A DNA stretch of 64,000 nt from the NCBI GenBank assembly GCA_016930255.1, contig JAFGHB010000040.1, positions 5,187 to 69,186 of the forward strand. The letters run 5' to 3'. Position numbers and translations under genes: made by a program. Shown piece by piece: positions 7,882 through 22,936 of the stretch (position 1 is its first letter; each line of letters begins with the position of its first letter). The notes under the pieces were generated by a model. That model made no database searches. It was not told where the DNA came from and saw only the letters and a program-made list of their open reading frames with translations. This stretch comes from Methanomicrobia archaeon (GTDB lineage Archaea; Halobacteriota; Syntropharchaeia; Alkanophagales; Methanospirareceae).

Positions 7882-8760
7882 ATGGAAACGAAAACTGGTA
7901 TTGTTTCGGTCGTAGTGATGGCACTTTTTATACTTACGATAGTGGCTATGCCACTTAACGCGAGTGCTGATGAAATCCGAATTGACAGTATCGGCGATAA
8001 GAATATTGGCAAGGAGGTAACGGTTTCCGGTGTTATCATAGCGATTTCCAATAATGTCGAGCCGTCAAAAGAAAAAGGTACGGGCATTCAGACCTTCGAG
8101 CCCGGAGATACGGGCATTCTCACCATCGATGACGGTACAGATACGATACTCGTTAGCAGTGACCTCCGGCTCGTCGAAGAGTTTTACAAAGGCCAACGAG
8201 TGATGGTGACAGGAATATACGCCGGCAAAGTTGGCGATAATGGCCTTATCTATGCGGATACGGTGAGCACTGATGTATGGGCTGGCTACAAAGCCGTGAC
8301 GGTTAAAGAGCTTACCGATTTTCCTGAGTATTATTATGCACAGTCGGTGCGTATACAAGGGAATGTGACGCGCATGGAATTTACGCGCAATGAAACGGAT
8401 TTGACGGTTGACGACCAAACGGGGGCGATGGATGTGGAATACCGTGCGGAGCTGGAGACGATAACGGTCGACGATGAGGTGGTCGTCGAGGGTAAGTTTT
8501 ATCGTAACAAACTATATGCCTTCACGATACGGGCACCAGTATCGGAACCGGAAGTAACGCCTGAGCCACGCCCGACACCGACACCAACACCTACGTTGAC
8601 GCCAGCGCCAACGTCATTGACACCCACACCACAGCCTACGGAAGAAGAGAGTATGCCGATATATTACATAGTACTGATTATCGCCATTGTGGCCGTAGTA
8701 GGTGTGGTTCTTTCCTTCAGAGTACGAGACTGGCTCATGATTAGACGATATGGCAAATAA
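7882..8760 (+). CDS. secreted membrane-anchored protein with two OB-fold-like repeats, PT-rich linker and C-terminal TM anchor
   Basis: Signal peptide (IVSVVVMALFILTIVAMPLNASA). Two similar segments (…KEVTVSGVII… / …QSVRIQGNVT…). PTPTPTPTLTPAPTSLTPTPQPTEEES linker, then hydrophobic helix and basic tail. Confidence 0.6.
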   Translation: METKTGIVSVVVMALFILTIVAMPLNASADEIRIDSIGDKNIGKEVTVSGVIIAISNNVEPSKEKGTGIQTFEPGDTGILTIDDGTDTILVSSDLRLVEEFYKGQRVMVTGIYAGKVGDNGLIYADTVSTDVWAGYKAVTVKELTDFPEYYYAQSVRIQGNVTRMEFTRNETDLTVDDQTGAMDVEYRAELETITVDDEVVVEGKFYRNKLYAFTIRAPVSEPEVTPEPRPTPTPTPTLTPAPTSLTPTPQPTEEESMPIYYIVLIIAIVAVVGVVLSFRVRDWLMIRRYGK

Positions 8761-10663
8761 TAAATTTTCGCGAAGAGGGAGCAGAGCAAATAAGGAGAGC
8801 GAAAAGGCAGAAGAGCAAGCGGCAGGAAAAGCTACAGCGAAGAAGCAAATGCAGAAAGCATTGGCTGAGGTGAAGCGGATAGAGAAAGCGGAGAAACTGC
8901 AGGAGAAGGCTGTTGCTAAGAAACACACTAATACAGAGAAGGCAAAGGAAAAAGGCGATGAGGAAAGTATTGCGAAGGCTCAATCTGAAGAGGAGGAGGC
9001 ATTAGCCGTTTTAGAAAAGATACGGGAGACGAAAAGGGGCGTAGAAGCTGAGCTGAGAATGGCAATAGCCGCATTGAAGGGCGAGCCTGCAAGAGTCTCT
9101 CCAAGAGTGCCTTCAGTAGCAAGCACTGCACAACGCGAGTTCCTTGGCGCGGAGGATGCACCACCGATAGAACCTGCGATAGCAGCGGCTATGGACAAAC
9201 CGCTACAGGAATTAGAAGAAGGTGTGGACTACATAGAGCTGTATCCGGTTAATGAGCCCTATGCATATGTGGTTATCACCGCAACAACCCCTCCTAAATA
9301 CATCGTTCGAGAGGTCTCTCTCACAAAAGGGGAGGCTGAGCTTTTGAAAGAGGTCAAGACGTACCTTTATGAGACCTTAGATGCTGTCTTTGCAGGTTTA
9401 CTGAAACCCGAGGTGTTTCTCAGGGAGAGAGTGGACCATGTAATTAAGGAATTCTCTTTAGATAAGAGCGTAAGTTCTGGGAGCATGGATAAGATAATGT
9501 ATTATATCTATCGTGATTTCATCGGCTATGGTAAGTTAGACCCGCTTATACGGGATAAAATGGCTGAGGACCTCTCAGCAGACGGGCCTAATATTCCGTT
9601 GTATGTATTCCACAGGATTTACAGCTCGATAGAAACGAACATAATATTTGATAAGGAGGAATTAGATGCATTGATTTACCGCTTATCTCAGCGATCAGGG
9701 CGACACATCTCGATGGCTAAGCCACTGCTAGATGCCTCACTGCCGAATAAGGATCGGTTACAGTTGAGTATCGGGAGCGAAGTAACAACGCGGGGTTCAA
9801 CGTTCACAATACGAAAATTTAAGGAGATACCCTTCACTCCGATAAACCTGGTGGAGTACGGGACGTTCTCTATGGAAATAATGGCGTATCTCTGGATGGC
9901 GGTTGAGCAAGGTGCGAACATTCTTATCGCAGGGGGTACTGCGTCGGGAAAAACAACGGTATTAAACGCAATAGCGATGTTCATACCGCCGGAAAGTAAG
10001 ATCATCTCAATTGAAGATACGCGTGAGATAAATTTGATGCATCAAAATTGGATCCCTTCCTTGACGAGAGCGGTGGAAGAGGGTGGATACGCCATCGAGA
10101 TGTACGACTTACTACGGACTGCACTCAGACAGAGACCGGAGTACGTTCTGGTAGGCGAAGTGCGAGGCGTCGAGGCGCATACACTTTTCCAGGCGATGGC
10201 TACCGGGCACATTACCATGTCCACGATCCATGCGGAATCTGCGGATACCGTCGTCAAACGATTGACCAAGCACCCCATTGACGTGCCGCTCATGCTCCTT
10301 GACAGCTTGGATATCATTGCAATTCAGCGACAGGTGAAAGTGGGTGATAGAGCGGTACGGAGATGCACCAAGATAATAGAAGTAACGGGAATAAATTTTG
10401 TGGATGAAACGTTAGAAACGAACGAGCTGTTCACGTGGCGACCCGATGAATTTGAATTCACGGGCGAATCGAGGGTGTTTGTCAAGATTATGGAGAAACT
10501 CAATATGCATGAGGATGAATTAGTAGCGGAGTTTACACGAAGGAGGCGGATTTTGGAGGGGATGCGAGTGAAGGGGATGGCCGACTTCCAGTCTCTTAAC
10601 AAGGTCTTACAAGATTATCATGTAAATCCTGAGGAAACGGAGAAACGTATATTAGCGGAATAG
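8750..10663 (+). CDS. FlaI/PilB-family secretion ATPase (archaeal type IV pilus/Tad-like assembly ATPase) with ~145-aa charged N-terminal extension
   Basis: Walker A GGTASGKTTVLNAI, then IEDTREINL, RQRPEYVLVGEVRGVEAHTLFQAMATGH and YPVNEPYAYVVI, all typical of FlaI/GspE ATPases. The N-terminal 145 aa are Lys/Glu/Ala-rich and in-frame with no stop. Overlaps the upstream gene by 11 nt. Confidence 0.85.
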   Translation: MANNKFSRRGSRANKESEKAEEQAAGKATAKKQMQKALAEVKRIEKAEKLQEKAVAKKHTNTEKAKEKGDEESIAKAQSEEEEALAVLEKIRETKRGVEAELRMAIAALKGEPARVSPRVPSVASTAQREFLGAEDAPPIEPAIAAAMDKPLQELEEGVDYIELYPVNEPYAYVVITATTPPKYIVREVSLTKGEAELLKEVKTYLYETLDAVFAGLLKPEVFLRERVDHVIKEFSLDKSVSSGSMDKIMYYIYRDFIGYGKLDPLIRDKMAEDLSADGPNIPLYVFHRIYSSIETNIIFDKEELDALIYRLSQRSGRHISMAKPLLDASLPNKDRLQLSIGSEVTTRGSTFTIRKFKEIPFTPINLVEYGTFSMEIMAYLWMAVEQGANILIAGGTASGKTTVLNAIAMFIPPESKIISIEDTREINLMHQNWIPSLTRAVEEGGYAIEMYDLLRTALRQRPEYVLVGEVRGVEAHTLFQAMATGHITMSTIHAESADTVVKRLTKHPIDVPLMLLDSLDIIAIQRQVKVGDRAVRRCTKIIEVTGINFVDETLETNELFTWRPDEFEFTGESRVFVKIMEKLNMHEDELVAEFTRRRRILEGMRVKGMADFQSLNKVLQDYHVNPEETEKRILAE

Positions 10664-10677
10664 CGGAAGAATAAGCT

Positions 10678-11568
10678 ATGAGTATAGAGAGTGAAGCGGC
10701 ACCCAAAAGTGGAACAGTATCAGATCTATTTCGCGGTTATTTCAGGGGGAGACGAGAGAAGTACACGAAACTCAGGGAGAACCTTTTGAGAGCGAGGATC
10801 TTCGTTCCTGTAGAGAGATGGTTATCAAGAGCGATTTTCTACTCGATCTTCGCGGCAGTTGGGGTGGTGGCGGGCTATATCCTCCTGAAGTATCTTATTC
10901 TCTCTTTGCTGTCCGAGTTTTCACTGGGATTAACCGACCTTGTTGTTAGCGTCATGTTCGCGGCAATTGCATTTTTCGTCTCGTACATCAGCTTTTATCT
11001 GTATCCCAGAATACGGGTGTGGGAGCGAAGGGGGAAGATCGATGCGAACCTGCCGTATGCTATCGGGTTCATATCGGCGATGGCATCTATCGGGGTGTTT
11101 CCTTATACGATCTTTAAGAAGCTTTCAGAAGCGGAGGAGACGTATGGCGAGGTGAGCAATGAGTTGAAGCTGGTAGTGCGGGATGTGGAATTGCTGGGTT
11201 TCGATTTCATCACGTCACTCAAAAGACTCGTCGCGACCACGCCGTCTATGAACATGAGAACGTTCTTGCAGGGGGCGGTCACCACGGCCCTTTCTGGCGG
11301 CGAGATGGGTACATACTTTGTTAATACAGCAGAAGAATACATGGAAGAGCGGAGGAAGAGATATGAGAGCTTTATTGAGACGTTGGGCTTTTTTGCGGAG
11401 TTTTACGTTATCGGGTTGGTTACGGCCCCGCTCTTGCTGGTGGTGGTGCTCTCGATAATGGTTTTTCTCGGCGGCGCTTCTCTTACAGGACTTGCAGCAA
11501 TTGTCTACATTGTCATCCCGCTGGGCTCCACAGCGTTTATCTTTTTGATTGGCACATTATCGGACTAA
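10678..11568 (+). CDS. TadB/FlaJ-like polytopic membrane protein (type II secretion system F-domain, first half)
   Basis: 296-aa multi-TM protein immediately after the FlaI-like ATPase. Length and hydropathy fit one T2SSF domain. Confidence 0.65.
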   Translation: MSIESEAAPKSGTVSDLFRGYFRGRREKYTKLRENLLRARIFVPVERWLSRAIFYSIFAAVGVVAGYILLKYLILSLLSEFSLGLTDLVVSVMFAAIAFFVSYISFYLYPRIRVWERRGKIDANLPYAIGFISAMASIGVFPYTIFKKLSEAEETYGEVSNELKLVVRDVELLGFDFITSLKRLVATTPSMNMRTFLQGAVTTALSGGEMGTYFVNTAEEYMEERRKRYESFIETLGFFAEFYVIGLVTAPLLLVVVLSIMVFLGGASLTGLAAIVYIVIPLGSTAFIFLIGTLSD

Positions 11569-11575
11569 GAGGGAA

Positions 11576-12517
11576 ATGAAAGAGGATAAGCTTCTTGAGG
11601 CGATAGAGAAGAAGAGGAAAGAGAAGCGGATAGTACGAATCATCAGAGACCCTATAGGGCTCTTCAGGGATAACCCACTGCGATTGGGGTACGTCTCAGG
11701 TGCGATTGGTATCTGTCTCATGATTATGTCATATCTCTACGCGTGGGAATTTGTAGCACCATACGATGCGTACATCTTATCAGGTATCGTCGCGGTTATT
11801 CCCCCGGCAGCATATCTGTATGCGGAGCAAAAACGAGTGCGGAAGGCGGATGACGAATTCCCGAGCTTACTGCGTGACCTTGCACAGGCGAAGCGCGCGG
11901 GTCTCACCTTGATCGATGCACTTACGCTTACCGCCGAGGGGAATTATGGTGTGCTTACACCCGGGCTGAAGACGCTTGCGTATCACCTGACCTGGGGTCT
12001 TTCTTTTGAGGACGCACTGCGGATGTTTGCAAAGCGGTACCCCACGCGAATAATCAAACGGTCGATCGAAATAATTATAGAAGGCTATCAGGTAGGTGGT
12101 GATGTAGGCGAAATCCTGAAAGTTGCGGCGGAGGATGTCATGGAGTTGCGAGCGCTGGAAAAGCGGAGGATTTCTGATATGGGGCAGTATGTACTCATCT
12201 GCTACGTTACCTTCTTTGTGTTCCTTGGCGTCTTGGTGGTGCTCTATCAATCGTTTATTCCAATGATGGTAGAAGCTTCGGAGAAGGTAGCGGGGACTGG
12301 GGCAGGTTCTTTTATGGTTAGTGTAGATGTGGTAACACTGAAGATGCTGTTCTTTCACTGTAGTATCATCCAGGGTATCAGTGCGGGGCTAGTGGCGGGA
12401 AAGTTAGGTGAAGGGCAAATTGTTTCTGGTCTGAAGCACGCGACTGTGTTAGCATTAGCAACCTTCGTCGTATTTGCCATTTTGAAATTCCTGCCACCGA
12501 TGACCGTATCTCTATGA
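11576..12517 (+). CDS. TadC/FlaJ-like polytopic membrane protein (T2SSF-domain, second half)
   Basis: Start moved to ATG 11576 (MKEDKLLEAIEKKRKEK…), preceded by GAGGG 4 nt upstream. The upstream gene stops at 11568. …AKRAGLTLIDALTLTAEG…GYQVGGDVGEIL… are T2SSF-like motifs. Confidence 0.65.
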   Translation: MKEDKLLEAIEKKRKEKRIVRIIRDPIGLFRDNPLRLGYVSGAIGICLMIMSYLYAWEFVAPYDAYILSGIVAVIPPAAYLYAEQKRVRKADDEFPSLLRDLAQAKRAGLTLIDALTLTAEGNYGVLTPGLKTLAYHLTWGLSFEDALRMFAKRYPTRIIKRSIEIIIEGYQVGGDVGEILKVAAEDVMELRALEKRRISDMGQYVLICYVTFFVFLGVLVVLYQSFIPMMVEASEKVAGTGAGSFMVSVDVVTLKMLFFHCSIIQGISAGLVAGKLGEGQIVSGLKHATVLALATFVVFAILKFLPPMTVSL

Positions 12518-12651: not shown

Positions 12652-13119
12652 TTATAGCACATCTCCCGTTATCAGATTATACCTTACCTCGTCTTCATAG
12701 ACGGACGTTCCGTCTGACAGGCGGATGGTGACATTAGCGATGCGAGATGAGGCATTATAATCTTCTGGTGCATGGCCAAAGACCAGAAAGTACCCGCGAC
12801 GATTCACCAGGCGCTTCATCTGTAATTCGTGAATATTGAGTACATCGCGAGTAGTGCCATTAAAGGGGTTCCTTGGGTCATCTATATCGGTAACGTTCGT
12901 TGAAACATCTTGTAGAACGTGACCATAGGTATCACGAACATCAATGAAGACAAATCCAATATCGCCTTGTTCCTCTCGTATCGTTCGCTGCCCGGCCATT
13001 CCTGTAGAATAATAGATGGTGGCAAACGCGATGATGGCAATGGTAATAATAAATCCCGTGATTAAAATTACCTGTCCGCCATTATCATCTCGTAGAGTCA
13101 TGTCATTCTTTTCATTCAT
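12652..13119 (-). CDS. small membrane-anchored pilin-like protein
   Basis: N-terminus …RDDNGGQVILITGFIITIAIIAFATIYY has a single hydrophobic helix after a charged stretch. Convergent with the FlaJ-like genes. Confidence 0.45.
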   Translation of the reverse strand: MNEKNDMTLRDDNGGQVILITGFIITIAIIAFATIYYSTGMAGQRTIREEQGDIGFVFIDVRDTYGHVLQDVSTNVTDIDDPRNPFNGTTRDVLNIHELQMKRLVNRRGYFLVFGHAPEDYNASSRIANVTIRLSDGTSVYEDEVRYNLITGDVL

Positions 13120-13152: not shown

Positions 13153-15750
13153 TTATCTAAACCACAAAACTAATTGGACTTCATAGACGTTATATCCCGT
13201 CCCCCGTGGGTCCCGTGCATATACCAATTTATCCACCGCGACCGCCTGGGGGCCGGGCAGTCCGTGTTCGACCTTTGCGGTTCCATCAAGCATGATTTCC
13301 CCGGTGTCATCAAGGAAGTAGAGATTGTATTCGATATACTCGGGGAGGACCTCGTCGATCTTTTCGTCAAGTCCGTTCCAATCTCTATTCTCTACGGCAC
13401 GCATCAATGCACTGGTGGCGATCAAATCGACACTCCAGTCGTGGAGTACTGGCGTGTAACGATTGTCCGAGGTGCTTAATTCCGCGTATAATCGTATCGA
13501 ACTCACGCCGGAATCACGAAGAAGGCCAAGGTCATAACCTTGTGCTGCCTCAGCAGCGGTGATAGTATCGCAGATCGTGGAATTATCGGTGGCATTTAAA
13601 ATTTTAAACGAGATGGCTGTACCTTCAAGTGACGAGGTGTACGAGGAGGCGTAAAACTTATTCCAGCTTCTTGATGAGGTCGCAGTTATGGGCACGGACG
13701 TGAGATTGGCCGAAAACTCGTAGCCTATACCAGAGACAACGACTTTAAGGTAATCGGAATGGAGAGAGTGATGACCTTTACAGGGAAATGGTTCCTTTAC
13801 CGATGTGATATGATAGTAGCTCTCGTAAGGATAATCCTCGGGATGGAGGTATCGCGGAATCATCCATTTCGTGTACGCGTACGGCGTGTACGTCAAGTTG
13901 TAAAGGAGGTCCAAATTATAGATCTTGTCTTCCGGGACAACAGAACCGACTAAGTCGTAGTAGCCCGAAGCGCAGAAAATATAAGTTCTATCAAGACCTT
14001 CGGTAGTATTCATGGCGGGGAATCTGAAGGTTATAAAATCCCCTTGGGTTATACGAGCATACCCCGTGTCGGTATCTGTTACGTTTTCAAGGACATCTTC
14101 TACCGTCCCGTTAACGTACCGCGTCTCGGCTTCAATCGGGCGTATCCAAGTACTCGTAACGGGACTATCAGGAGAATAGTCTACCGCCACGTAGTCAAAA
14201 TCATGACAGGCAAACGGTATAACGATCCGTATCTGGTTACCAACATTTGCCGTAAGGTTCAAGGGAATAACTTTAGGAGCCACGTCGAAATAGATGGACG
14301 AGATAGGGATAGCGGAGTGGGTGTACCAGGCGGTACCGTTCCAGAACTGGATGAGGGGTGCAACCGTCTCAAAAATCGTCTGGTCGAGTTGCGTGGCAAA
14401 TTCCTCATCGGTTTCAACCAGATCAAGCAGGTATTCACAATTAGGTGTGCCGAGCAGGTAATGATTGTAATACCATAATTTCAACTCGGTAAAATCCGTG
14501 ATTCGCATGTTCACCAGCAATTTCGCTTCGCTTTCATTCTTTGGCAGGGTTATCGTAATCCAATCGTATAAGTTATGTGTATCGTTAAAGTCCCTCGTTG
14601 TTGATACGTTGCTCCCCCAGAAATCGAGGTCTTGCGCTGCCAACGCCCCGGTTATGTCCTTCCCTTCGTTATCAACGGCCGAGACAGGAAGCGGATTGGT
14701 TATTGTATGCAGGGTTCCGTAATCGTCAGGCAAAACGGAGGTATTTTCGGGGTGCTCTACAACCTGCAGATCTAAACTGTTTATGTAACCGTCATCCGGT
14801 AACGCCATGAAGACAATCGCTTCGTAACATCCGTTTTTAACGGCTAAATTCGTTGTCGTCACAAAACTCGAGCCCTCGTATCGCGCATTAAAACTGCCCG
14901 TGAAGAGAAGATCTAAAAGCTCGTATTCCTCGCCAGTCCATCCGTAGATGAAAGGACAACCGCTTTCCTCTGCACTGGCAAGAACAGTTATGGTCTCGCC
15001 TGAAATAAAATCTTCTGCATCGGTTACCGACCCGTTCAACCATCCTTCGGTACCCATTGCGTCTTCGGTTTGCAATCGATGCCAGATACCTACTGAATGA
15101 TCCCAGATCCAAAGCGTAGTATCGTAGCCCGAACTTCCTGTACCATGCCCTTCCCAGGAAATATTTAGTTCTGATATCGTGCTCGGGGACTCATTAATGG
15201 TAACGTTATACAGTTGGATATTATAATCAACACCACCAAGCCTCCAAATATCAGTCACCCACCGGTTATCATCAGATGTCGAGAGGGAGGTATAATTGCT
15301 TGACGAAGCAGGATCGCCCTGATCATTTGGATCTGAGGGGATGTCTTCGTCTTCCCACGCCCACTTATTTGTGCCCGCGCCACTGCTGAAGTCATACGTT
15401 CTGGTAAACGGATTATTTTCGATCCGAATATCGCCACCGCTTAAGTTTATACTATTGTTGTCATCGATATACTGATGACTTTCATTGCCGCTGAACTCAT
15501 CAGTCCATGAGATGTTGCCCGTTGTGATATTCCCCGTTACGTTAATCACCGTTATATTTGCCTCGGGATAGAACGAGATCACCATGAGCGCATCTTCGCC
15601 ATACTTCTGCAACTGCACGGCGGAATAGCCCTGCTGCTGTGGTGCGTAGGCGAGCATCACGAACGTGAGAGCGCTCAGCATAAGCAGTGCTGAGATTACC
15701 GCCTCGAGGGTCTGCATCTGCGCTTTTTTATCCAACATTTCGGTTACCAC
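13153..15750 (-). CDS. large pilin-like protein with class III (type IV prepilin-like) signal peptide; putative minor pilin/adhesin
   Basis: MVTEMLDKKA|QMQTLEAVISALLMLSALTFVML: KKA at -3..-1, Q at +1, TLE at +4..+6, hydrophobic helix. The 865-aa body is very rich in N-x-S/T sequons. Confidence 0.65.
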   Translation of the reverse strand: MVTEMLDKKAQMQTLEAVISALLMLSALTFVMLAYAPQQQGYSAVQLQKYGEDALMVISFYPEANITVINVTGNITTGNISWTDEFSGNESHQYIDDNNSINLSGGDIRIENNPFTRTYDFSSGAGTNKWAWEDEDIPSDPNDQGDPASSSNYTSLSTSDDNRWVTDIWRLGGVDYNIQLYNVTINESPSTISELNISWEGHGTGSSGYDTTLWIWDHSVGIWHRLQTEDAMGTEGWLNGSVTDAEDFISGETITVLASAEESGCPFIYGWTGEEYELLDLLFTGSFNARYEGSSFVTTTNLAVKNGCYEAIVFMALPDDGYINSLDLQVVEHPENTSVLPDDYGTLHTITNPLPVSAVDNEGKDITGALAAQDLDFWGSNVSTTRDFNDTHNLYDWITITLPKNESEAKLLVNMRITDFTELKLWYYNHYLLGTPNCEYLLDLVETDEEFATQLDQTIFETVAPLIQFWNGTAWYTHSAIPISSIYFDVAPKVIPLNLTANVGNQIRIVIPFACHDFDYVAVDYSPDSPVTSTWIRPIEAETRYVNGTVEDVLENVTDTDTGYARITQGDFITFRFPAMNTTEGLDRTYIFCASGYYDLVGSVVPEDKIYNLDLLYNLTYTPYAYTKWMIPRYLHPEDYPYESYYHITSVKEPFPCKGHHSLHSDYLKVVVSGIGYEFSANLTSVPITATSSRSWNKFYASSYTSSLEGTAISFKILNATDNSTICDTITAAEAAQGYDLGLLRDSGVSSIRLYAELSTSDNRYTPVLHDWSVDLIATSALMRAVENRDWNGLDEKIDEVLPEYIEYNLYFLDDTGEIMLDGTAKVEHGLPGPQAVAVDKLVYARDPRGTGYNVYEVQLVLWFR

Positions 15751-16382
15751 ACCAGCATTCTCATGGTATAATAATCGTAATCATAGTCCATATCTCTTAT
15801 AATCGGAACGACAACGATCCGTTCAATAACGACCACGTCGCCGGATAAGCCTTTACGTACCGCGTCAAAGTTATCATCCGCAACATCCTGCGAAAACGTG
15901 GATTCGTTGGTTGGTATGACCTGTATATAGCACCCATAGCCCCGGTATCCGCCGGAGGCATTCCCTTGTAAGCCGAGTGCTGCGGTAGCACTTCGATATT
16001 TGGTGCTTCCGACAGCGTCTTCCCCAAATTCCCACCAGGTGTTATTACCCGATGTATTCGAGGACATTAGCGCATCCAACTTTGCACGATCGAGCACGTT
16101 TGGTTTTGACTGATCGGAAAGGCCAATTCTCACGACGGCCGAGTAGTTGCCCTCGATCCAGAGTGCATCCCAATCGGCAGGTTCACCGGGGTCTTTAATC
16201 AGGATTTCAGCGACACGGTGTGCGACGGGATAGATCTTTGCGGATTCACCGGAATACGAGGCTGTTGACGCGGCGAGCAGGTAGTAGGTGAGTAAGAACG
16301 CACCGATAAAGATGCCGATAGCGACAAGGAAGTCAATGCTTAACGCCTGCGCGTTCTCATCAGCCACCAGTTTCCTTTTCAT
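15744..16382 (-). CDS. pilin-like protein with class III-type signal peptide
   Basis: MKRKLVADENA|QALSIDFLVAIGIFIGAFLL. Overlaps the upstream gene by 7 nt, consistent with an operon. Confidence 0.55.
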   Translation of the reverse strand: MKRKLVADENAQALSIDFLVAIGIFIGAFLLTYYLLAASTASYSGESAKIYPVAHRVAEILIKDPGEPADWDALWIEGNYSAVVRIGLSDQSKPNVLDRAKLDALMSSNTSGNNTWWEFGEDAVGSTKYRSATAALGLQGNASGGYRGYGCYIQVIPTNESTFSQDVADDNFDAVRKGLSGDVVVIERIVVVPIIRDMDYDYDYYTMRMLVW

Positions 16383-16498: not shown

Positions 16499-16978
16499 CT
16501 ATACGTTTTCAAGTGTTATATTATTCCCGCTTTTTGTTATCCGTACTCGTGTGGACAGAGCGCTGGATGCGGTTCCGGTTACGTTTACCGTCATCGCATT
16601 GCCCCGGCCTTCGGTATTTAACGGGACGTAGACCGTTACTTCGGCGGAATAAATTTTGAGTGCAGGTCTGTTGAGATAATCAGAAGAAACTTCAATAGAA
16701 TACCCGGTCACCGTGTCCTCGCTACTACCAATTTGATAGGGGATCTTGAGCGTTCTCGTGGCATTCGTGCAGTTGGTGAGGTACATATCATTGATCGTGT
16801 CCGAGATCTGGTTACCTAACCCTGCGTACTGTATGGTTATCGATTGCTTTGCCGCGTCGGCCACCAACCCGTTAAAAAGCAAAACAACGGTGGTCATGAG
16901 AGCTACCGCTAACGAAATAAGAATGGCGTACTCCAACGTTAGTGAGACCGCTTTTTCATCGTGTATGAAGTTCTTCAT
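16499..16978 (-). CDS. pilin-like protein with class III-type signal peptide
   Basis: Start moved to MKNFIHDEKA|VSLTLEYAILISLAVALMTTVVLL, giving K at -2, A at -1 and TLE at +4..+6. Confidence 0.55.
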   Translation of the reverse strand: MKNFIHDEKAVSLTLEYAILISLAVALMTTVVLLFNGLVADAAKQSITIQYAGLGNQISDTINDMYLTNCTNATRTLKIPYQIGSSEDTVTGYSIEVSSDYLNRPALKIYSAEVTVYVPLNTEGRGNAMTVNVTGTASSALSTRVRITKSGNNITLENV

Positions 16979-17317
16979 GTTCTGCTTATAACTACAGCGC
17001 TCCACGTATTTGTTATTTCATCCAGTCTTTAAAAAGGAAATGTGACGTTCTATCCATTCGAAACTAATTCCGTTCCTTGCGCGCCGATTCCCGAGTCATC
17101 ACCGATACTCCTGTTCAGTATAGGTCTGCTGGCACTTGTCGGATACGTACTGCATGTGAAGCGATTCGGATTGACCTTGCGAGTGTGTATGGGGCTCTTT
17201 ACGGGATCCTTCACGTACTTCAGAGAGTATGGTATGGCCGTACAACCTCTTGACAGTACGCTACTTTTATATACTCCTTTATCTTATCGCATGTTTAATA
17301 TACTAATGAGCTAACAA

Positions 17318-18097
17318 ATGCTGCGTATTATAAAATCCAACGAAGCGATTTCACCGGTTATCGGTATGGCACTAATACTGGGGATCGTCGTTACGGCAGT
17401 AGGGATTATCTATTCGGTGGAAATGCCAAAGATCGAATCTGCCAAGGAAGAAGCACAGCTGGAGAATATGCGCAGCAATTTCCTCACCCTTCAAACTGAT
17501 ATCAGAGACCTCGTCCAATCGCCTTCTACGGGCCGGGTGACCAAGATGCAACTGGAGGCCGGCTCAATAGGAGCGTATGCGGCCGGGTCTGCAAATGGCA
17601 CGGGATATATCCGCTACATCGCGGGCGACGATATCATAGCATACGAGAACGGCGCGGTCTTCGCCAAATATGCCGGCGGGAACGACTATGCCGAAGTGAT
17701 CAGCGACCCGATCATGTACGTTGACGTTGATGACGATAATGTTACCCACGTGTATATCCATGCTATCACACTAAACGGCAGCAAATCCGTTGCCGGTACC
17801 GGCCCTGCTGAGTTCGCCCTGACACAAGGGAAACACACTAAGAAGCACGACAATGTAGAAACGAACAATCTGATATTCCACATAAACAGCACGTTCTATC
17901 GTGGCTGGGAAGAGTATTTCAGGGAGATATTCGCTTATGCAGACCTAGAGGAGGGCCCTCTGAACAACTCAGACTGCAACGTCTCCACTTCAGATGAAGA
18001 TGAGAGTGTAACCATCTTCATAGAGGGGAAAGAGTGGTCGGGAGACGAATACGATATAACGCTCTACTATGTGAAGACCGAGGTGATTGTATCATAG
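17318..18097 (+). CDS. archaeal type IV pilin (archaeal pilin N-terminal domain)
   Basis: MLRIIKSNEA|ISPVIGMALILGIVVTAVGIIY matches the archaeal pilin N-domain consensus (…A.SPVIG..L…). A TATA-like TTTAATATAC lies about 25 nt upstream. Confidence 0.7.
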   Translation: MLRIIKSNEAISPVIGMALILGIVVTAVGIIYSVEMPKIESAKEEAQLENMRSNFLTLQTDIRDLVQSPSTGRVTKMQLEAGSIGAYAAGSANGTGYIRYIAGDDIIAYENGAVFAKYAGGNDYAEVISDPIMYVDVDDDNVTHVYIHAITLNGSKSVAGTGPAEFALTQGKHTKKHDNVETNNLIFHINSTFYRGWEEYFREIFAYADLEEGPLNNSDCNVSTSDEDESVTIFIEGKEWSGDEYDITLYYVKTEVIVS

Positions 18098-18988
18098 ATG
18101 AAACAGATCTTCCTCTGTTTGATAGTGGCGTTACTGGCATGTGCCGTTGCTGCTGTCGGCACTACTATGGCGTATGATCCTCTATTTTGGATTGAAGAAC
18201 CTCAAACCACACAGTTGAACATGACCATCACACAGTGGGACGAGACCACGATGAGCTGGGAAGTGCCAGTCGATTCGGTGTATTACATCGAGTCACCGAT
18301 AAACATTATGGTGAAATACCCGGGCGGAGCTAACGCTACGAATGCAACAATAAATATTACCGGTCCCGGGTCCACCACTCACCCGGAGTTGACCACGAAC
18401 GCGACAGGACAGGCGAATTACACCTTTAATTATACAGAGATAACACGGGGTGGGCAGCAGATCGTTGTTAAAGCAGTAAAACCCGGAGCCGCGTACGCGC
18501 AACAGAATATTTACGTGGACTACCAGGGGATTTTGGAAGTGAGCGTGCGTACCGATAGCATGGTTATTGATTCCGATTATGGGAATTATTGGAACTCCGA
18601 TGCGGATATGTACTACACCGTTATTGTACGCGATTCCGCAACCGCTTCGAAAGATCCCGTGGAAGGTGTTAAGGTCACTATGACTCATGATGCGAATACG
18701 AATCACGTTTATATGGATGAGGGAACCAACCCCAATAAGAGTTGCCAGATAGCATATACTGATAACGACGGCGAAGCTACGTTTTCCGTGCACAGCGATT
18801 CCGTTACGGAACTCGAGGGTACTCTCTTTACCATAACCACCGAGCGGAGGGGTTATATGCCTGATAGCGCAACATTTAATGCCCCTTCTGATATTACTGT
18901 TGTACCGGTTAAAGGCGCGTTTGCAACCGTGGTAGCCTTCTTGGTTGCATCTCGCTTAGCGCGGACGCGGAGAACGCATAAACGATGA
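18098..18988 (+). CDS. secreted cell-surface protein (paralog A)
   Basis: Signal peptide (LCLIVALLACAVAAVGTTMA). Shares extended similarity with 19068-20387 (…SWEVPxDSxYYIExP…ELTTNATG…YTFxYTEITRGxQQIxVKAxKPG…). Start lies 1 nt after the previous stop. Confidence 0.7.
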   Translation: MKQIFLCLIVALLACAVAAVGTTMAYDPLFWIEEPQTTQLNMTITQWDETTMSWEVPVDSVYYIESPINIMVKYPGGANATNATINITGPGSTTHPELTTNATGQANYTFNYTEITRGGQQIVVKAVKPGAAYAQQNIYVDYQGILEVSVRTDSMVIDSDYGNYWNSDADMYYTVIVRDSATASKDPVEGVKVTMTHDANTNHVYMDEGTNPNKSCQIAYTDNDGEATFSVHSDSVTELEGTLFTITTERRGYMPDSATFNAPSDITVVPVKGAFATVVAFLVASRLARTRRTHKR

Positions 18989-19067: not shown

Positions 19068-20387
19068 ATGAGAAGAAGCACCCTTTCTCTTTGTTGTAGT
19101 ATTCTATGTCTGGTTATCGTCGCCGTTTCAGTCGGTACGGCAGCGACAACACCATATGTCCCAGAATTCTGGGTTGATACTGGTCATACCGCGGAGTTGA
19201 ACATAACGATGTGGAACGAAACAACGCATAGCTGGGAAGTTCCAAGTGATTCGCTGTATTATATCGAGACGCCGGTTATCATTAACGTGACGAACAAAGA
19301 CGACGAGCCCGTTGAAAATGCAACGGTAACCATTACGGGACACAACACCTACGCGGAGCTAACCACGAACGCCACGGGCATTGCGAATCCTGTTTACACG
19401 TTTGATTATACAGAAATAACACGGGGTGAGCAGCAGATAGCGGTAAAAGCGATAAAGCCCGGATACGCGTACGCGACAGCGATTATCTACGTTGACTATA
19501 GAGGAATCTTGGAGATAAGCGTGCGTACCGATAGCATTTATGTTGATGCTAATATTTGGAATCCCGACAATTCAGATGCTGAGATATACTATACGATTAT
19601 TGTAAGTGATTCTTCAAAGGCTTCGAAAGACCCTGTAGATAGTGTTAATGTTACTATATCTCATGATGCTGACACCGATTACGTTTCGCTGGATTGTATG
19701 CCTCCAGGCTGCAAGATCAATTTTCAAACAGTAGATACCGATGAGAATGGCGAAGTCTCGTTTTCCGTTCACACTACTGAAGTCGGAGAACTCCAAGGCG
19801 CTGTTTTTACGGCAACCGCGGAGAAAGAGGGATACATGTCGGATAGCATGATGTTTACTGCTCCGTTGACGGTTGAGTGTTTCATCGCAACGGCAGCCTA
19901 CGACTCGCCGGTTGATGAGCATCTCGAGGTCTTACGCGCGTTCCGGGATACGGTACTGCTCACCAATCCCGTGGGAAGATTCATCGTGGGCACGTACTAT
20001 ACCACCAGTCCTCCGATCGCGGATGCAGTAGCGGAGAGCGATAATTTGCGTGCGGCAACGCGGCTGTTCCTGCTGACACCGTTAATTTACCTTTCCGCGA
20101 TCTGCCTGAATACGATGGCGTTTGCCGCTTTTGTCGTTCTCATGCTTATCCTGCTCTTCGTACTGAAACGGCACGTGAAAGTGCTCCTGAAGGGCATTGG
20201 CTATGGGGCTTTAACCGTTGCTGCCTTTACGGTTACGGTCTTTACACTGGGCGCACTCGGCTATGAACTCCCAGTCTGTGCAGCGATAGCAGCCTTTTTA
20301 TTGCCCCTGATTATTCCCGCGGCGGTTGCCGTTTGTATAATTGTGTGGATAGAATCGCGATCGCAGTCGATCGCAGTCGAAACCTAA
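19068..20387 (+). CDS. secreted cell-surface protein (paralog B) with extra C-terminal CFIATAAY…LRAFRD domain and TM anchor
   Basis: Paralogous to 18098-18988 over about 270 aa. It adds …CFIATAAYDSPVDEHLEVLRAFRDTVLLTNPVGRFIVGTYYTTSPPIADAV… followed by hydrophobic segments. Confidence 0.7.
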   Translation: MRRSTLSLCCSILCLVIVAVSVGTAATTPYVPEFWVDTGHTAELNITMWNETTHSWEVPSDSLYYIETPVIINVTNKDDEPVENATVTITGHNTYAELTTNATGIANPVYTFDYTEITRGEQQIAVKAIKPGYAYATAIIYVDYRGILEISVRTDSIYVDANIWNPDNSDAEIYYTIIVSDSSKASKDPVDSVNVTISHDADTDYVSLDCMPPGCKINFQTVDTDENGEVSFSVHTTEVGELQGAVFTATAEKEGYMSDSMMFTAPLTVECFIATAAYDSPVDEHLEVLRAFRDTVLLTNPVGRFIVGTYYTTSPPIADAVAESDNLRAATRLFLLTPLIYLSAICLNTMAFAAFVVLMLILLFVLKRHVKVLLKGIGYGALTVAAFTVTVFTLGALGYELPVCAAIAAFLLPLIIPAAVAVCIIVWIESRSQSIAVET

Positions 20388-20607: not shown

Positions 20608-22936
20608 ATGGCGGAATGCTGCAAGGTCGAACCGAGGGAGCATGCTAGGCAGACTATGAAAAAGAAACGGGAAACGTTACTCCAGGACACCCATGCCCTA
20701 TCCGAAGTGGTGGGTTTCGTCTTGATCATGGGCATTCTCCTTGCTGTAACCTCCATTTACATCGCGCAGCAGGTCCCGGAATTGACGAAGGATTATGAAG
20801 CACGGCACGCAGAAGAGGTCGTCGATGATTTCTCAGACCTGGACTCGCTTGTTGACGGCATCGTGCTCGTTGCCAAACTGGAAGAAGTAACCTCAGGATC
20901 AGCAGCCACCAAATCAATAACGATGTCGCCTGGTAGAGTACCGCTCTTCGGCATGTCTCCCGCGGGCGCAATTCTCTCGTTCTCGCCTTATGAAGAAGCA
21001 CTCTTCACGATCTTACCCTACGCCGGTGGCGGTTCACTTCCTACCGGTCCATCAGCTAACTATTCCATGGAAGAGAGCACGACCGCTAATTTTAGTCATG
21101 CAAACGCAACGAGGGTGAACGTGGACATCTCGTTCGATCAAATCACACTTGCACGCATGGGTATTAGCGGCGATCTCACCCTTAATAATATGGTTACGAC
21201 TCTCAGCGGTGAGCATCAATACGATACGATAACCATCACGAACAACAGCATCGTTTACCTCGTGCCCGGTAATTACCTGAGGCTCTACGCCAATACGATT
21301 CTCATTGACGCCACCTCCTCCGTCATCGCGGATGGCAAGGGTTACGCGGGTGGTGTCGGTGGTCAAATTGGGAGTGGTGCGGGCTTTGGATCCTTTGGCT
21401 TTAACGGTAGTGGCGGCGGTGGTGCTGGCCACGGTGGCGAAGGTGGAGACGGTGGTCGTGGAGGACTCTCCCTGGAAAAGGGAATCGCAACTGATATTGG
21501 GAACGGTGGAATCTTTTACGGTGATAACTTGTCTACATCTTTTGAATTCGGGTCTGGTGGTGGCGGTGGCGGCTATGGTGAGGGAGGTCAAGGAGCACCG
21601 CACCAAGGCCAGGTCGGGGGAACTGGTGGGTACGGTGGCGGAGTCGTGGTACTGGACGCAGCACTGATACGAATTGCTGGTAACATTTCCGCTGACGGTG
21701 ATGATGGGACTGATGGTTCTGAAGCCAAATATGCATCCGGCGGTGGCGGGGGTGGCAGTGGCGGTACCATCCTCATCCGGGGATATGAAGTGAATCTCTC
21801 CTCAGCGACGCTCTCGGCACGAGGTGGTGCAGGGGGCGACGGTGGTACGAGAACTACAGGAAGTGGAAAGAATGGGGCTGGGGGGGGGCGGTGGTGCAGG
21901 CGGGCGAATAAAAATATTTTACGATAATGTATCGCTCTATACCGTTCCATCAAGTCTTCCTGTGAATGGTGGTACCGGTGGTATCAACGGGGGTGTTGGT
22001 GCAGAGGATGGCGTTAACGGAAATTCTGGCATTCCTTACGCGAATGAAACGACATACATCTCTACCGTTCCGCATTATGAAGATGGTTACTACGTCTCCC
22101 GTGTCTATGATACGGGCAATACCACGACGTGCTATGGTAATATGTCATGGGACGCTACGACCGATGAATATACTCCTCTAACGCTGAAAGTACGAACGAG
22201 CATATACCCTGATATGACGGGTGCCGCGCTCTGGCCGAACTGCCCCGTGGTAGCAAATGGACAGGACATCTCCGCGTTATCTTCGGCATTCGATATGCAT
22301 CGATACATTCAGTTCCGCGCAGATTTATCAACCTATGACACCACGACAACGCCCGTTCTGGATTGTGTACGCATCAATTACTCCTCGCACTGCCTTGCGG
22401 GTGACGATGAGGGGGCCGTCATCGATTCGGCTGCCGGCATCGTCAAGTTCCGCAGCAGTTATATCTATTACCCCAACCAGGAAATCTTGTACGAACACGG
22501 AGCGGTGATTCGTGCTCAGACGATCGATGATGAGAAAAAGGGTTTTGTGATTCACGATCCCCCTATTACGATCGGAACGGACAATGCGACCGGTGCGCCT
22601 CTACTGCGGATTTCTATGGTCGATTTAACCGGCTCGAACTATTCCTATGCCGGCTCAAGGAGCGCCTCTGTGGAAACGTCCTACGCTGACTATGTCCATC
22701 TTGCGGGCACCATCGCCTTTGATAATTTGTCCCTTGACTTAACTACGGAGTATCCGTCTATCTGGCAGAGCTGGTTTAATGCGCAGCTTGCAGAATCCGA
22801 CTTAGATGCGTCGTATTATAATCCTCCGGTCGTTAACGAATCCGCAGGAACTGTGGTGGTCGAGTTTTACGGGCACGGATACGGTGTGCAGTTGTACGAG
22901 GAAAAGACCACGGTTAACGTAGAGATAACAACGTAA
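20608..22936 (+). CDS. ~780-aa glycine-rich pilin-like surface protein, reading frame interrupted at a G9 homopolymer
   Basis: N-terminus …MKKKRETLLQDTHA|LSEVVGFVLIMGILLAVTSIY resembles an archaeal pilin N-domain. Body has GGxGG/GDGG-rich repeats. ORFs 20608-21927 (frame 1) and 21824-22936 (frame 2) join by a +1 shift in the G-run at 21880-21888, giving …GKNGAGGG|GGAGGRIKIFYDN… A TATA-like ATTATATAAG lies about 25 nt upstream. Confidence 0.65.
21880..21888 (+). repeat. G9 homopolymer at the frameshift point of the glycine-rich gene
   Basis: ctgGGGGGGGGcgg seen directly in the sequence. Frame 1 gives sensible protein before it and frame 2 after it. Confidence 0.9.

What the first reader, a model, noticed from the sequence alone, without database searches (positions are those of the whole stretch)
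7882..22936. Large type IV pilus / Tad-like adhesion-appendage locus with FlaI, split FlaJ, at least five class-III-signal pilins and giant adhesin-like proteins
A FlaI-like ATPase and two T2SSF-domain membrane proteins are followed by a convergent block of four pilin-like genes, then a canonical archaeal pilin. After that come two paralogous secreted proteins and a glycine-rich pilin-like protein of about 780 aa. No archaellum genes (flaB, C, D, E, F, G) are present, so this is a pilus rather than an archaellum. The 865-aa and 780-aa pilins, both with class III signals, are candidate tip adhesins. The content as a whole is not a textbook Aap/Ups/Tad arrangement.
Basis: partly seen in the sequence, partly recalled or inferred. 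Interest (0 to 1): 0.7.

Follow-up and report, generated by a model that had tools for sequence, protein, structure and literature searches.

The report
Archaeal adhesion pilus gene cluster
This is a gene cluster for a non-motility type IV pilus of a kind already catalogued in euryarchaea; two of its pilin-like proteins are unusually large, carry adhesin-like domains, and one of them is broken by a one-base slip in a run of nine G's.

Summary
Window 7882-22936 encodes a PilB/FlaI-family ATPase and a platform protein split into two single-T2SSF genes. It also encodes six proteins with class-III-like N-termini (Pfam DUF7261, DUF7288, DUF7287, DUF7266 and two DUF7289), two paralogous secreted Ig/MG4-like proteins and a conserved OB-fold membrane protein. 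There are no archaellum genes and no prepilin peptidase in the window.

The locus is not a new kind. It fits the euryarchaeal "clade 2 / system 2" multi-pilin type IV pilus described by Makarova et al. 2016. The closest solved ATPase is A. fulgidus GspE, a clade-2 member, not FlaI. The same pilin families recur in the same order in two unrelated metagenome contigs, one of which has an unsplit platform gene.

- There are six pilin-like genes, not five.
- The "780-aa" pilin is two ORFs as assembled. A +1 frameshift lies in a G9 run at 21880-21888. More than 50 homologues aligned over about 97-99% of the repaired 775-aa sequence.

A confident AlphaFold model of that family shows a pilin helix, a Gly-rich beta-helix and a jelly-roll domain, which are adhesin-like folds. 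The 861-aa pilin carries a roughly 550-aa module also found on bacterial N-methyl pilins.

Verdict: new member of a known kind, moderate interest.

The parts
7882..8760 (+). 292-aa membrane protein: N-terminal signal or anchor, OB/CcmE-like domain, Pro/Thr linker, C-terminal TM. It overlaps the ATPase start by 11 nt. Probable accessory component.
   Evidence: Pfam CcmE 27.2 bits. TM segments at 1-30 and 255-287. Homologues lie directly upstream of the ATPase in L002, L003 and L007.
8750..10663 (+). 637-aa PilB/FlaI-family assembly ATPase with a Lys/Glu/Ala-rich N-terminal extension of about 150 aa.
   Evidence: T2SSE 129 bits. Against the NCBIfam FlaI model it scores 378 bits, below the 550 cut-off. 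Best PDB match is 2OAP, A. fulgidus GspE, at 407 bits. Walker A (GGTASGKTT), Asp box, Walker B and His box are intact. NCBI names it TadA.
10678..11568 (+). 296-aa platform protein, N-terminal half of PilC/FlaJ, with one T2SSF domain.
   Evidence: T2SSF 47.8 bits. Matches FlaJ model positions 31-243 of 555. Aligns to residues 15-308 of the fused 642-aa PilC of L017.
11576..12517 (+). 313-aa platform protein, C-terminal half of PilC/FlaJ, with one T2SSF domain. An alternative TTG start lies at 11549.
   Evidence: T2SSF 67.1 bits. Matches FlaJ model positions 286-540 of 555. Aligns to residues 335-639 of the L017 PilC.
12652..13119 (-). 155-aa pilin-like protein, DUF7261-like. Last gene of the minus-strand pilin operon.
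   Evidence: DUF7261 17.9 bits, below cut-off. Leader ...RDDNG|GQVILITGF followed by a hydrophobic stretch. 37% identical to the DUF7261-like gene in the same position in L017.
13153..15738 (-). 861-aa modular pilin: DUF7288 N-terminus and AF_1625_C C-terminus, interrupted by an inserted module of about 550 aa (residues ~117-673). Candidate adhesin-bearing minor pilin.
   Evidence: DUF7288 33.1 bits. PF27237 AF_1625_C. Only one full-length homologue, P0002 at 67%. P0126 (472 aa) is an orthologue without residues 260-670. The central module is 42% and 37% identical to bacterial N_methyl pilin-like proteins.
15744..16382 (-). 212-aa pilin-like protein, DUF7287-like.
   Evidence: DUF7287 25.3 bits, just below the cut-off of 27. 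36-37% identical to DUF7287 genes of L013 and L017, which pass the cut-off.
16499..16978 (-). 159-aa pilin, DUF7266. First gene of the minus-strand operon and a candidate filament subunit.
   Evidence: DUF7266 29.4 bits over the whole length. Leader MKNFIHDEKA|VSLTLEYAILISL. Orthologues in L013 and L017.
17318..18097 (+). 259-aa canonical euryarchaeal pilin, DUF7289 with a Pilin_N-type N-terminus.
   Evidence: DUF7289 66.9 bits, Pilin_N 20.7 bits. 42% identical to the DUF7289 gene of L013. A TATA-like TTTTATATA lies at 17264-17272.
18098..18988 (+). 296-aa secreted Ig/MG4-like protein with a C-terminal TM anchor.
   Evidence: MG4 26.9 bits. Sec-like N-terminus and a TM at 265-285. 55% identical to the next gene.
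19068..20387 (+). 439-aa paralogue with the same ectodomain plus a CFI-box-CTERM domain and several TM segments.
   Evidence: MG4 28.9 bits. CFI_box_CTERM 88.6 bits against a cut-off of 40. A 456-aa orthologue (38% over the full length) sits right after DUF7289 in L013.
20608..22936 (+). Gly-rich giant DUF7289 pilin, 775 aa when repaired. As assembled it is interrupted by a +1 frameshift in a G9 run at 21880-21888. The likely true start is at 20656.
2562..5304 (.). Probable regulatory neighbours: a KaiC-like ATPase (2562-3416 +) and three receiver-only response regulators (3441-3902 -, 4476-4853 +, 4861-5304 +).
   Evidence: The same KaiC and response-regulator genes flank the orthologous ATPase and platform genes in L006 and L009. 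Makarova 2016 lists KaiC-family ATPases as candidate T4P regulators.
5332..7587 (-). 751-aa S-layer-glycoprotein-like surface protein with a PGF-CTERM. Possibly associated with the locus, or simply the cell's S-layer protein.
   Evidence: PGF-CTERM 18.7 bits, cut-off 18.8. Partial matches to HVO_2072 and MEMAR S-layer models. Makarova 2016 notes S-layer-like proteins in clade-2 loci.

Best explanation
This is a chromosomal locus of an uncultured 'Methanomicrobia archaeon' MAG. Its closest relatives by ATPase are Methanosarcinales and ANME-1/Methanophagales MAGs. It encodes a non-archaellar type IV pilus of the euryarchaeal clade-2 (system 2) multi-pilin kind, most probably an adhesion pilus.

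Proposed mechanism (inferred by homology, not shown here):
1. A class III signal peptidase encoded elsewhere removes the short leaders of the six pilin-like proteins.
2. The hexameric PilB-like ATPase drives a platform made of two half-size PilC proteins. This is a fissioned PilC, as in TadB/TadC.
3. The platform extracts pilins from the membrane and stacks them through their N-terminal helices.

The five single-copy pilin families occur in a fixed order: DUF7289, DUF7266, DUF7287, DUF7288, DUF7261. They most likely form a priming or tip complex, by analogy with bacterial minor-pilin complexes. The bulk filament subunit is either the small DUF7266 or DUF7261 pilin, or a PilA- or archaellin-type subunit encoded in trans.

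Two members are standard minor-pilin scaffolds into which large modules have been inserted.
- The DUF7288 pilin (861 aa) carries a module of about 550 aa of unknown function.
- The second DUF7289 pilin (775 aa) carries a Gly-rich beta-helix plus a jelly-roll domain.
These would present binding surfaces at or along the pilus.

The MG4/CFI-box membrane proteins and the OB-fold protein are conserved accessory components. The KaiC-like ATPase and the CheY-like receivers probably regulate the system. In this genome the Gly-rich pilin gene is out of frame.
For: Machinery:
- T2SSE and two T2SSF hits.
- The two platform genes map to the N- and C-halves of FlaJ/UpsF models and of a fused 642-aa PilC in L017.
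- ATPase catalytic motifs are intact.

Clade:
- The best solved relative is A. fulgidus GspE (407 bits, against FlaI 266 and CpaF 159).
- A 511-aa A. fulgidus ATPase of the same length is listed as Clade_2 in Makarova's Table S3.
- Orthologous ATPases carry weak PilB3_N hits. The 45%-identical ATPase of L017 has PilB3_N and PilB3_C above cut-off.

Pilin set:
- Five haloarchaeal-derived Pfam pilin families are hit.
- The same families occur in the same order in L017 and L013, with 25-42% identity to the window's proteins.
- The synteny is identical in L007.
- Makarova 2016 describes this multi-pilin variant, its duplicated variable-length signature pilin, and pairs of tadC genes in clade 2. Table S4 shows a six-gene pilin cluster in A. 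fulgidus that includes a 959-aa pilin.

Adhesin reading:
- The AF2 model of the Gly-rich family has pLDDT 84.7, with a 65-residue N-terminal helix, a beta-helix and a beta-sandwich.
- The DUF7288 orthologue in L013 carries CBM96.
- The central module of the 861-aa pilin is fused to pilin N-termini in both bacteria and archaea.

Function by analogy: H. volcanii PilB3 and PilB1 pili mediate adhesion (PMC6491452).
Against: - No prepilin peptidase and no obvious major pilin are in the window.
- Class III cleavage was not predicted with a dedicated tool. Several leaders have N or Q rather than K/R/D/E at position -2.
- DUF7261 and DUF7287 score below the Pfam cut-offs in the window's own proteins.
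- Clade assignment rests on best-hit scores, not a phylogeny.
- The equivalence of the Pfam DUF families with Makarova's arCOGs is inferred, not tested.
- The 2026 preprint states that system 2 platforms are single genes, unlike here, although Makarova 2016 says many clade-2 loci have two.
- One putative adhesin gene is frameshifted, so the system may be partly inactive.
- There is no expression or filament evidence.
Confidence: 0.78

Rival explanations
1. The machine builds only a short pseudopilus or membrane-anchored scaffold that displays large binding or enzymatic proteins at the cell surface. This would be a bindosome- or T2SS-like 'functionalised' system rather than a long adhesive pilus.
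For: - No clear major pilin lies in the window.
- Two of the six pilin-like proteins are 775-861 aa with cargo-like domains.
- The 2026 preprint argues that proteins bearing class III signals functionalise archaeal TFF machines.
- The ATPase also matches the BasE model at 212 bits.
Against: - BasE is far below its cut-off of 1000 and scores lower than FlaI and GspE.
- No substrate-binding proteins or ABC transporter genes are in the locus.
- Related loci carry small PilA-type Pilin_N genes or archaellin-family genes next to the same ATPase, which points to real filaments.
- The closest studied relatives make adhesion pili.
Confidence: 0.12
2. The locus is in decay. The frameshifted Gly-rich pilin marks a system that is no longer functional in this population.
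For: - A +1 frameshift lies in a G9 run and is present in two independent assemblies of the same run.
- Fragments of the homologous gene occur in the ANME-1 relative L004.
Against: - All other genes of the locus are intact long ORFs with conserved orthologues.
- The two halves of the broken gene are otherwise undamaged and 66% identical to full-length homologues over 98% of their length. That argues for a very recent or reversible event, or for a sequencing error.
Confidence: 0.07
3. It is an archaellum (motility) locus, or works with an archaellin operon elsewhere.
For: - The best NCBIfam hit of the ATPase is the FlaI model.
- In the ANME-1 relative L004, two Arch_flagellin genes (114-118 bits) lie just upstream of the 70%-identical ATPase.
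Against: - The FlaI score of 378 is below the 550 cut-off.
- A. fulgidus GspE is a much better match than FlaI.
- No archaellin and no FlaC-H or X genes are in the window. The KaiC-like neighbour scores 42.6 against 215 for ArlH.
- The pilin families belong to pilus sets.
- The L004 locus also lacks the archaellum accessory genes among those examined.
Confidence: 0.03

Closest known systems
Euryarchaeal clade-2 type IV pili, multi-pilin variant (Makarova et al. 2016, Fig. 4B, typified by the H. volcanii PilB4 locus; 'system 2' of Sivabalasarma & Albers 2026)
   Same: - PilB-type ATPase nearest to clade-2 members.
- A set of several distinct class-III pilin families in a conserved order.
- A duplicated, variable-length 'signature' pilin, here DUF7289 twice.
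- Very large pilins, as in the 959-aa arCOG03926 protein of A. fulgidus.
- An S-layer-like neighbour and a KaiC-type regulator.
- Prepilin peptidase encoded elsewhere.
   Different: - The platform is split into two genes. The 2026 preprint says system 2 has a single gene, whereas Makarova says many clade-2 loci have two.
- The ATPase has a Lys/Glu-rich N-extension rather than the haloarchaeal N- and C-terminal domains.
- The DUF7289 gene is inverted relative to the other four pilins.
- There are extra MG4/CFI-box paralogues, and the module-bearing pilins are of a type not described there.
H. volcanii PilB3-PilC3 / PilA1-6 adhesion pili
   Same: - Same ATPase clade. There are weak PilB3_N hits on orthologues, and PilB3_N plus PilB3_C on the related L017 ATPase.
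- Relatives of the window locus (L006, L009) pair the same ATPase with small Pilin_N (PilA-type) genes and one DUF7289-type pilin.
- The experimentally shown role is surface adhesion.
   Different: - PilC3 is a single protein.
- The PilB3 locus encodes no pilins.
- The window has no PilA-type gene.
Bacterial Tad/Flp pilus and archaeal Epd pilus (fissioned platform, Denise et al. 2019)
   Same: - Two adjacent single-T2SSF platform genes corresponding to the N- and C-halves of PilC.
- ATPase of the same broad archaeal/Tad branch.
- An adhesion role.
   Different: - The ATPase is far closer to A. fulgidus GspE than to CpaF (407 against 159 bits).
- No Flp- or Epd-type short pilin, TadZ/FlaH, secretin or dedicated EppA peptidase is in the locus.
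- The gene order is ATPase first, then the platform genes.
Bacterial minor-pilin tip complexes with large adhesins (FimU-PilVWX-PilY1; GspHIJK)
   Same: - Four or five different low-copy pilin-like proteins encoded together.
- A large non-standard member proposed to sit at the tip and bind targets.
   Different: - There is no sequence homology beyond the pilin helix.
- Here the adhesin modules are inserted into the pilins themselves rather than carried by a separate PilY1-like protein.
- This is an analogy only.

Membership tests
Archaeal type IV pilus (TFF superfamily, non-archaellar) | PilB/FlaI-family secretion ATPase with intact nucleotide-binding motifs | tested here: met
   T2SSE 129 bits. 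Walker A, Asp box, Walker B and His box are present. PDB relatives are GspE, FlaI and CpaF.
Archaeal type IV pilus (TFF superfamily, non-archaellar) | Polytopic platform protein with T2SSF domains (PilC/TadC/FlaJ) | tested here: met
   Two genes, each with one T2SSF domain (47.8 and 67.1 bits). Together they cover both halves of the FlaJ models and of the fused PilC of L017.
Archaeal type IV pilus (TFF superfamily, non-archaellar) | Pilins with class III (prepilin) signal peptides | tested here: inconclusive
   Six proteins have a short polar leader, then G/A, then a hydrophobic helix of about 20 residues. Pilin-family Pfam models cover that segment. The family model shows a long N-terminal helix. 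FlaFind and SignalP were not available, and several leaders have atypical -2 residues.
Archaeal type IV pilus (TFF superfamily, non-archaellar) | Class III signal peptidase (PibD/FlaK/EppA) in the genome | not testable with these tools
   None is in the 64-kb window, and the rest of the genome was not available. The ANME-1 relative L004 has Peptidase_A24 plus Arc_PepC_II beside the orthologous locus. In A. fulgidus the peptidase is a stand-alone gene.
Makarova clade-2 multi-pilin T4P (Fig. 4B type) | ATPase belongs to clade 2 | tested here: inconclusive
   The best solved relative is A. fulgidus GspE. An A. fulgidus ATPase of the same length is listed as Clade_2. PilB3_N and PilB3_C hits occur on relatives. 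No phylogenetic tree was built.
Makarova clade-2 multi-pilin T4P (Fig. 4B type) | Several distinct pilin families encoded together, including a duplicated, variable-length signature pilin | tested here: met
   DUF7266, DUF7287, DUF7288, DUF7261 and two DUF7289 proteins of 259 and 775 aa. The same set occurs in the same order in L013 and L017. The mapping of DUF7289 to arCOG02911 is inferred, not tested.
Archaellum | Archaellin genes (PF01917) and the accessory genes FlaF, FlaG, FlaH and FlaX or FlaCDE | tested here: not met
   None is in the window. The KaiC-like neighbour scores 42.6 against 215 for ArlH.
Archaellum | ATPase reaches the FlaI equivalog threshold | tested here: not met
   378.4 bits against a cut-off of 550.
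Bacterial Tad/Flp pilus | CpaF/TadA-type ATPase | tested here: not met
   TIGR03819 scores 156.8 against 373. CpaF structures score 159 bits, against 407 for archaeal GspE. The NCBI name 'TadA' is generic.
Bacterial Tad/Flp pilus | Two single-domain platform genes (TadB, TadC) | tested here: met
   Per Denise 2019 the N-half corresponds to TadC and the C-half to TadB.
Bacterial Tad/Flp pilus | Flp-type short pilin, TadZ, and secretin RcpA | tested here: not met
   No such Pfam hits were found among the locus proteins. The organism is an archaeon.
Bindosome (Bas) system | BasE- and BasF-type ATPase and platform, with class-III sugar-binding proteins | tested here: not met
   BasE scores 211.6 against 1000 and BasF 38 against 1300. 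No substrate-binding proteins are in the locus.

The most novel reading that the evidence does not exclude
The G9 tract inside the Gly codons of the giant beta-helix pilin may be a slipped-strand phase-variation switch that turns a pilus adhesin on and off in an archaeal population. Together with the tandemly multiplied paralogues interleaved with VapBC-like pairs in relatives, it would form a variable adhesin repertoire used by Methanosarcinales/ANME-related archaea to attach to partners or minerals. A further element of this reading is that the roughly 550-aa module of the 861-aa pilin has been exchanged between archaeal class-III pilins and bacterial N-methyl pilins.
Probability: 0.12. Interest if true: 0.7.

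Novelty: new member of a known kind. Interest (0 to 1): 0.36.

Why it matters
Non-archaellar pili of methane-cycling and related uncultured euryarchaea are almost unstudied, although attachment to partners and surfaces is central to how these organisms live.

This locus gives a clean, well-conserved example of three things:
- The five-family pilin set, which recurs in the same order in distant contigs.
- The way standard minor-pilin scaffolds (DUF7288, DUF7289) are turned into giant adhesin carriers by domain insertion.
- A populous uncharacterised family, more than 60 members, of Gly-rich beta-helix pilins.

It also shows that one large module is shared between bacterial and archaeal pilins. 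None of this changes the current picture of archaeal type IV pili. It adds detail and candidate proteins for experiments.

Tried and rejected
- A single-sequence AlphaFold run of the 865-aa pilin gave an unusable model (pLDDT 31).
- The PDB sequence searches found nothing: the 865-aa pilin as a single sequence, and profiles of alignments A1 (Gly-rich family) and A2 (865-aa pilin and its central-module homologues).
- The afdb50 fold library was not available.
- Word-indexed homologue searches returned only 2 hits for the 865-aa pilin and 6 for the 259-aa pilin, all on short contigs. Distant synteny therefore had to come from a metagenome pattern scan.
An alignment query would have reached cultured references.
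- No paper mentions the DUF72xx families or AF_1625.
- A CBM96 match was looked for in residues 101-250 of the 865-aa pilin and not found.
- The archaellum, bacterial Tad membership and bindosome readings were considered and rejected on score thresholds and gene content.
- The 90-aa ORF at 17042-17314, in the divergent intergenic region, has no family hit and is treated as probably spurious.


Full report
**1. What is in the sequence**

The interval 7882-22936 is densely coding. On the plus strand there are four genes in a row.
- A 292-aa protein with an N-terminal signal or anchor, an OB/CcmE-like domain (27.2 bits), a Pro/Thr linker and a C-terminal TM.
- A 637-aa T2SSE ATPase that overlaps the first gene by 11 nt (129 bits).
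- Two T2SSF proteins of 296 and 313 aa (47.8 and 67.1 bits).

Against NCBIfam FlaJ and UpsF models, the first T2SSF protein matches only the N-terminal half (positions 31-243 of 555). The second matches only the C-terminal half (286-540 of 555). Together they are one fissioned platform protein.

Four genes converge on this operon from the minus strand. In transcription order they are:
- 159 aa, DUF7266, 29.4 bits
- 212 aa, DUF7287, 25.3 bits against a 27-bit cut-off
- 861 aa, DUF7288, 33.1 bits, plus PF27237 AF_1625_C
- 155 aa, DUF7261, weak

Diverging from that block on the plus strand are:
- a 259-aa DUF7289 / Pilin_N pilin (66.9 bits)
- two paralogous secreted Ig/MG4-like proteins of 296 and 439 aa, 55% identical. 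The second has a CFI-box-CTERM domain, 88.6 bits against a cut-off of 40.
- a Gly-rich gene

All six pilin-like proteins begin with a short polar leader ending in G or A, followed by about 20 hydrophobic residues.

**2. The Gly-rich gene is frameshifted**

As assembled it is two overlapping ORFs, 20608-21927 and 21824-22936. The shift lies in a run of nine G's at 21880-21888, which is the only G/C homopolymer of 8 or more in the whole window.

Removing one G gives a 775-aa ORF. Its N- and C-terminal parts together score 43.7 bits on DUF7289.
- More than 50 homologues of 690-830 aa align over about 97-99% of the repaired protein, at up to 66% identity.
- An independent Logan assembly of run SRR13394437 carries exactly the same allele, with 0 mismatches in 3328 bases. 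It is therefore not an assembler artefact.
- Eight homologous genes encode the same poly-Gly stretch with mixed GGN codons and have no G run longer than six.

Whether this is a fixed pseudogene, a slip-prone on/off switch or a systematic read error cannot be decided without the reads.

**3. Source and relatives**

The proteins are identical to those of a 69-kb contig of 'MAG: Methanomicrobia archaeon' with JW878 locus tags. NCBI calls the ATPase TadA.

The nearest ATPases in reference genomes belong to three MAGs:
- a Methanosarcinales MAG, 78%
- a MAG labelled Halobacteria, 72%
- a Methanophagales (ANME-1) MAG, 70%

Synteny in relatives:
- L007 has the same layout: OB protein, ATPase and two T2SSF genes, converging with 186-, 859- and 145-aa genes.
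- L005, L006, L009 and L004 keep the ATPase, the two T2SSF genes and one to three Gly-rich DUF7289 genes.
  - These loci often also carry small Pilin_N genes, KaiC-like ATPases, response regulators and a histidine kinase.
  - In L005 and L006 the Gly-rich paralogues are interleaved with PIN / AF2212-like pairs.
- L004 also carries two Arch_flagellin genes and a Peptidase_A24 / Arc_PepC_II gene beside the locus.
- The window itself has no peptidase A24 and no archaellin.

**4. The pilin set is a conserved unit**

A metagenome scan seeded with the DUF7288 pilin found two distant contigs.

L017 encodes, in order:
- a KaiC/DUF7125 protein
- a fused 642-aa PilC with two T2SSF domains
- a 538-aa ATPase with PilB3_N and PilB3_C above cut-off, 45% identical to the window's ATPase
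- then DUF7289, DUF7266, DUF7287, DUF7288 (426 aa), one unassigned ORF, and DUF7261

L013 encodes, in order:
- DUF7289
- a 456-aa orthologue of the MG4/CFI-box protein, 38% identical over the full length
- DUF7266 and DUF7287
- a 494-aa DUF7288 that carries a CBM96 carbohydrate-binding module

The window's proteins are 25-42% identical to these counterparts. The window differs in three ways. The DUF7289 arm is inverted, the platform is fissioned, and an extra Gly-rich DUF7289 is present. The window's two T2SSF genes align to residues 15-308 and 335-639 of the fused L017 PilC.

**5. Placement among known systems**

The ATPase's best solved relative is A. fulgidus GspE (2OAP) at 407 bits over residues 154-629. 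FlaI scores 266 and CpaF 159. An A. fulgidus ATPase of the same length (511 aa, gi 11498267) is listed as Clade_2 in Makarova's Table S3. Treating it as the 2OAP protein is my inference from the matching length.

The ATPase fails the thresholds of the other candidate families:

| Model | Score (bits) | Cut-off |
|---|---|---|
| FlaI equivalog | 378 | 550 |
| TadA | 157 | 373 |
| BasE | 212 | 1000 |

Makarova et al. 2016 (PMC4858521) describe two organisations in euryarchaeal clade 2. One is a PilA-based type. The other is a multi-pilin type with its own pilin set. [quoted passage not shown]

Their Table S4 lists an A. fulgidus pilin cluster of six genes. It comprises arCOG06117, arCOG04652, arCOG06552, arCOG03926 at 959 aa, and arCOG02911 twice. 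The table also lists stand-alone arCOG02916 pilins of 580-720 aa.

The window matches this description. Its relatives (L006, L009) look like the PilA-based type with the same ATPase, so the window combines elements of both. That fits the modular exchange of pilin sets these authors propose.

Denise et al. 2019 (PMC6668835) attribute platform fission to the Epd-like/Tad clade. The 2026 preprint says system 2 has a single platform gene. The split platform, paired with a clade-2-like ATPase, is therefore the least typical feature here. Makarova already noted such cases.

**6. The two giant pilins**

*Gly-rich family.* An alignment of 56 members gave a confident AlphaFold model of P0003, which is 66% identical to the repaired window protein. 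Mean pLDDT is 84.7. My reading of the secondary-structure string (approximate domain boundaries) gives:
- a helix at 17-81
- a small beta domain
- a beta-helix whose turns are the Gly-rich stretches, roughly 180-440
- a beta-sandwich, roughly 465-585
- a C-terminal beta domain that completes DUF7289

This is fold-level support for an adhesin. It does not identify a ligand.

*861-aa pilin.* An exhaustive phmmer search of 1.84 billion representatives found one full-length relative, P0002. Smaller DUF7288 pilins lack residues ~260-670, for example P0126 at 472 aa.

The best matches to the central 117-673 region are proteins of about 1025 aa, 42% and 37% identical. They start with the bacterial prepilin motif KRGFTLLE and hit Pfam N_methyl. 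Other hits carry archaeal Pilin_N-type leaders, and hundreds are bacterial lipoprotein-like proteins.

The module has no Pfam or PDB relative, so its function is unknown. Its repeated fusion to pilin helices in both domains of life argues that it is a pilus-displayed unit.

**7. Mechanism and confidence**

The following are shown here:
- the gene content, domain matches and motif integrity
- conservation of the pilin set and its order
- the frameshift
- the fold of the Gly-rich family

The following are inferred:
- processing by a peptidase encoded in trans
- assembly by the ATPase and the fissioned platform
- a priming or tip complex made of the five single-copy pilins
- adhesion as the output, by analogy with H. 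volcanii PilB3/PilB1 and M. maripaludis Epd pili
- regulation by the KaiC-like and CheY-like neighbours, based on conserved synteny and Makarova's proposal

The identity of the main filament subunit is open. It could be DUF7266 or DUF7261 in cis, or a PilA- or archaellin-type subunit in trans as in L006, L009 and L004.

I put 0.78 on the clade-2-type adhesion pilus model. The rivals are a display-only pseudopilus (0.12), a decaying locus (0.07) and an archaellum (0.03).

**8. Verdict**

I rate it a new member of a known kind, interest about 0.36. Three points are worth carrying forward:
- modular 'giant pilins' built on conserved minor-pilin scaffolds
- a module shared between bacterial and archaeal pilins
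- the G9 frameshift, which could be tested as a possible phase-variation site

Noticed in passing
window 25922-34477 (-), with 25281-25949 (-): A 2851-aa surface protein with seven or eight NosD / right-handed beta-helix repeats and a Lamin Tail Domain. It lies next to a GtrA-family membrane protein, just beyond gyrB. It is a second giant adhesin-like protein close to the pilus locus, but it has no pilin-type N-terminus.
   Followed up: partly
window 47653-51369 (-): A 1238-aa type IIG/IIL restriction-modification fusion (Eco57I, N6_Mtase, MmeI_Mtase, TaqI_C). It sits in a low-GC stretch, 0.37 against about 0.48 elsewhere, which suggests a horizontally acquired island.
   Followed up: partly
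L005 2652-12786; L006 1767-12214: In related MAG contigs, three paralogous Gly-rich DUF7289 giant pilin genes lie in tandem. They are interleaved with small PIN / AF2212-like (VapBC-type) gene pairs. The reason for this alternation is unknown.
   Followed up: no
L004 4790-6056 and 18925-19695: In the Methanophagales (ANME-1) MAG, the 70%-identical ATPase and fissioned platform are flanked by two Arch_flagellin genes, a KaiC/GvpD-like ATPase and an archaeal A24 peptidase. No archaellum accessory genes were seen among the ORFs examined. This may be an archaellin-type filament built by a pilus-type machine.
   Followed up: partly
window 13153-15738 (-), protein residues ~117-673: The inserted module of the 861-aa pilin has its closest relatives in proteins of about 1025 aa with bacterial N-methyl prepilin leaders, 42% and 37% identical. 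It also occurs in hundreds of bacterial lipoprotein-like proteins. It has no Pfam or PDB match.
   Followed up: partly
L013 4061-5545: The DUF7288 pilin of this metagenome contig carries a CBM96 carbohydrate-binding module at the position where the window's orthologue carries its unknown module.
   Followed up: partly
window 17006-17317: The 312-bp divergent intergenic region between the two pilin operons holds a 90-aa ORF (17042-17314) with one hydrophobic segment and no family match. TATA-like boxes face both ways. The ORF is probably not a gene.
   Followed up: partly
window 8750-9200 (+), ATPase residues 1-150: The ATPase has a Lys/Glu/Ala-rich, probably coiled-coil N-terminal extension: 75 of the first 150 residues are K, E or A. 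It is retained in L003 and L007 but is shorter or absent in L004, L005 and L009.
   Followed up: no
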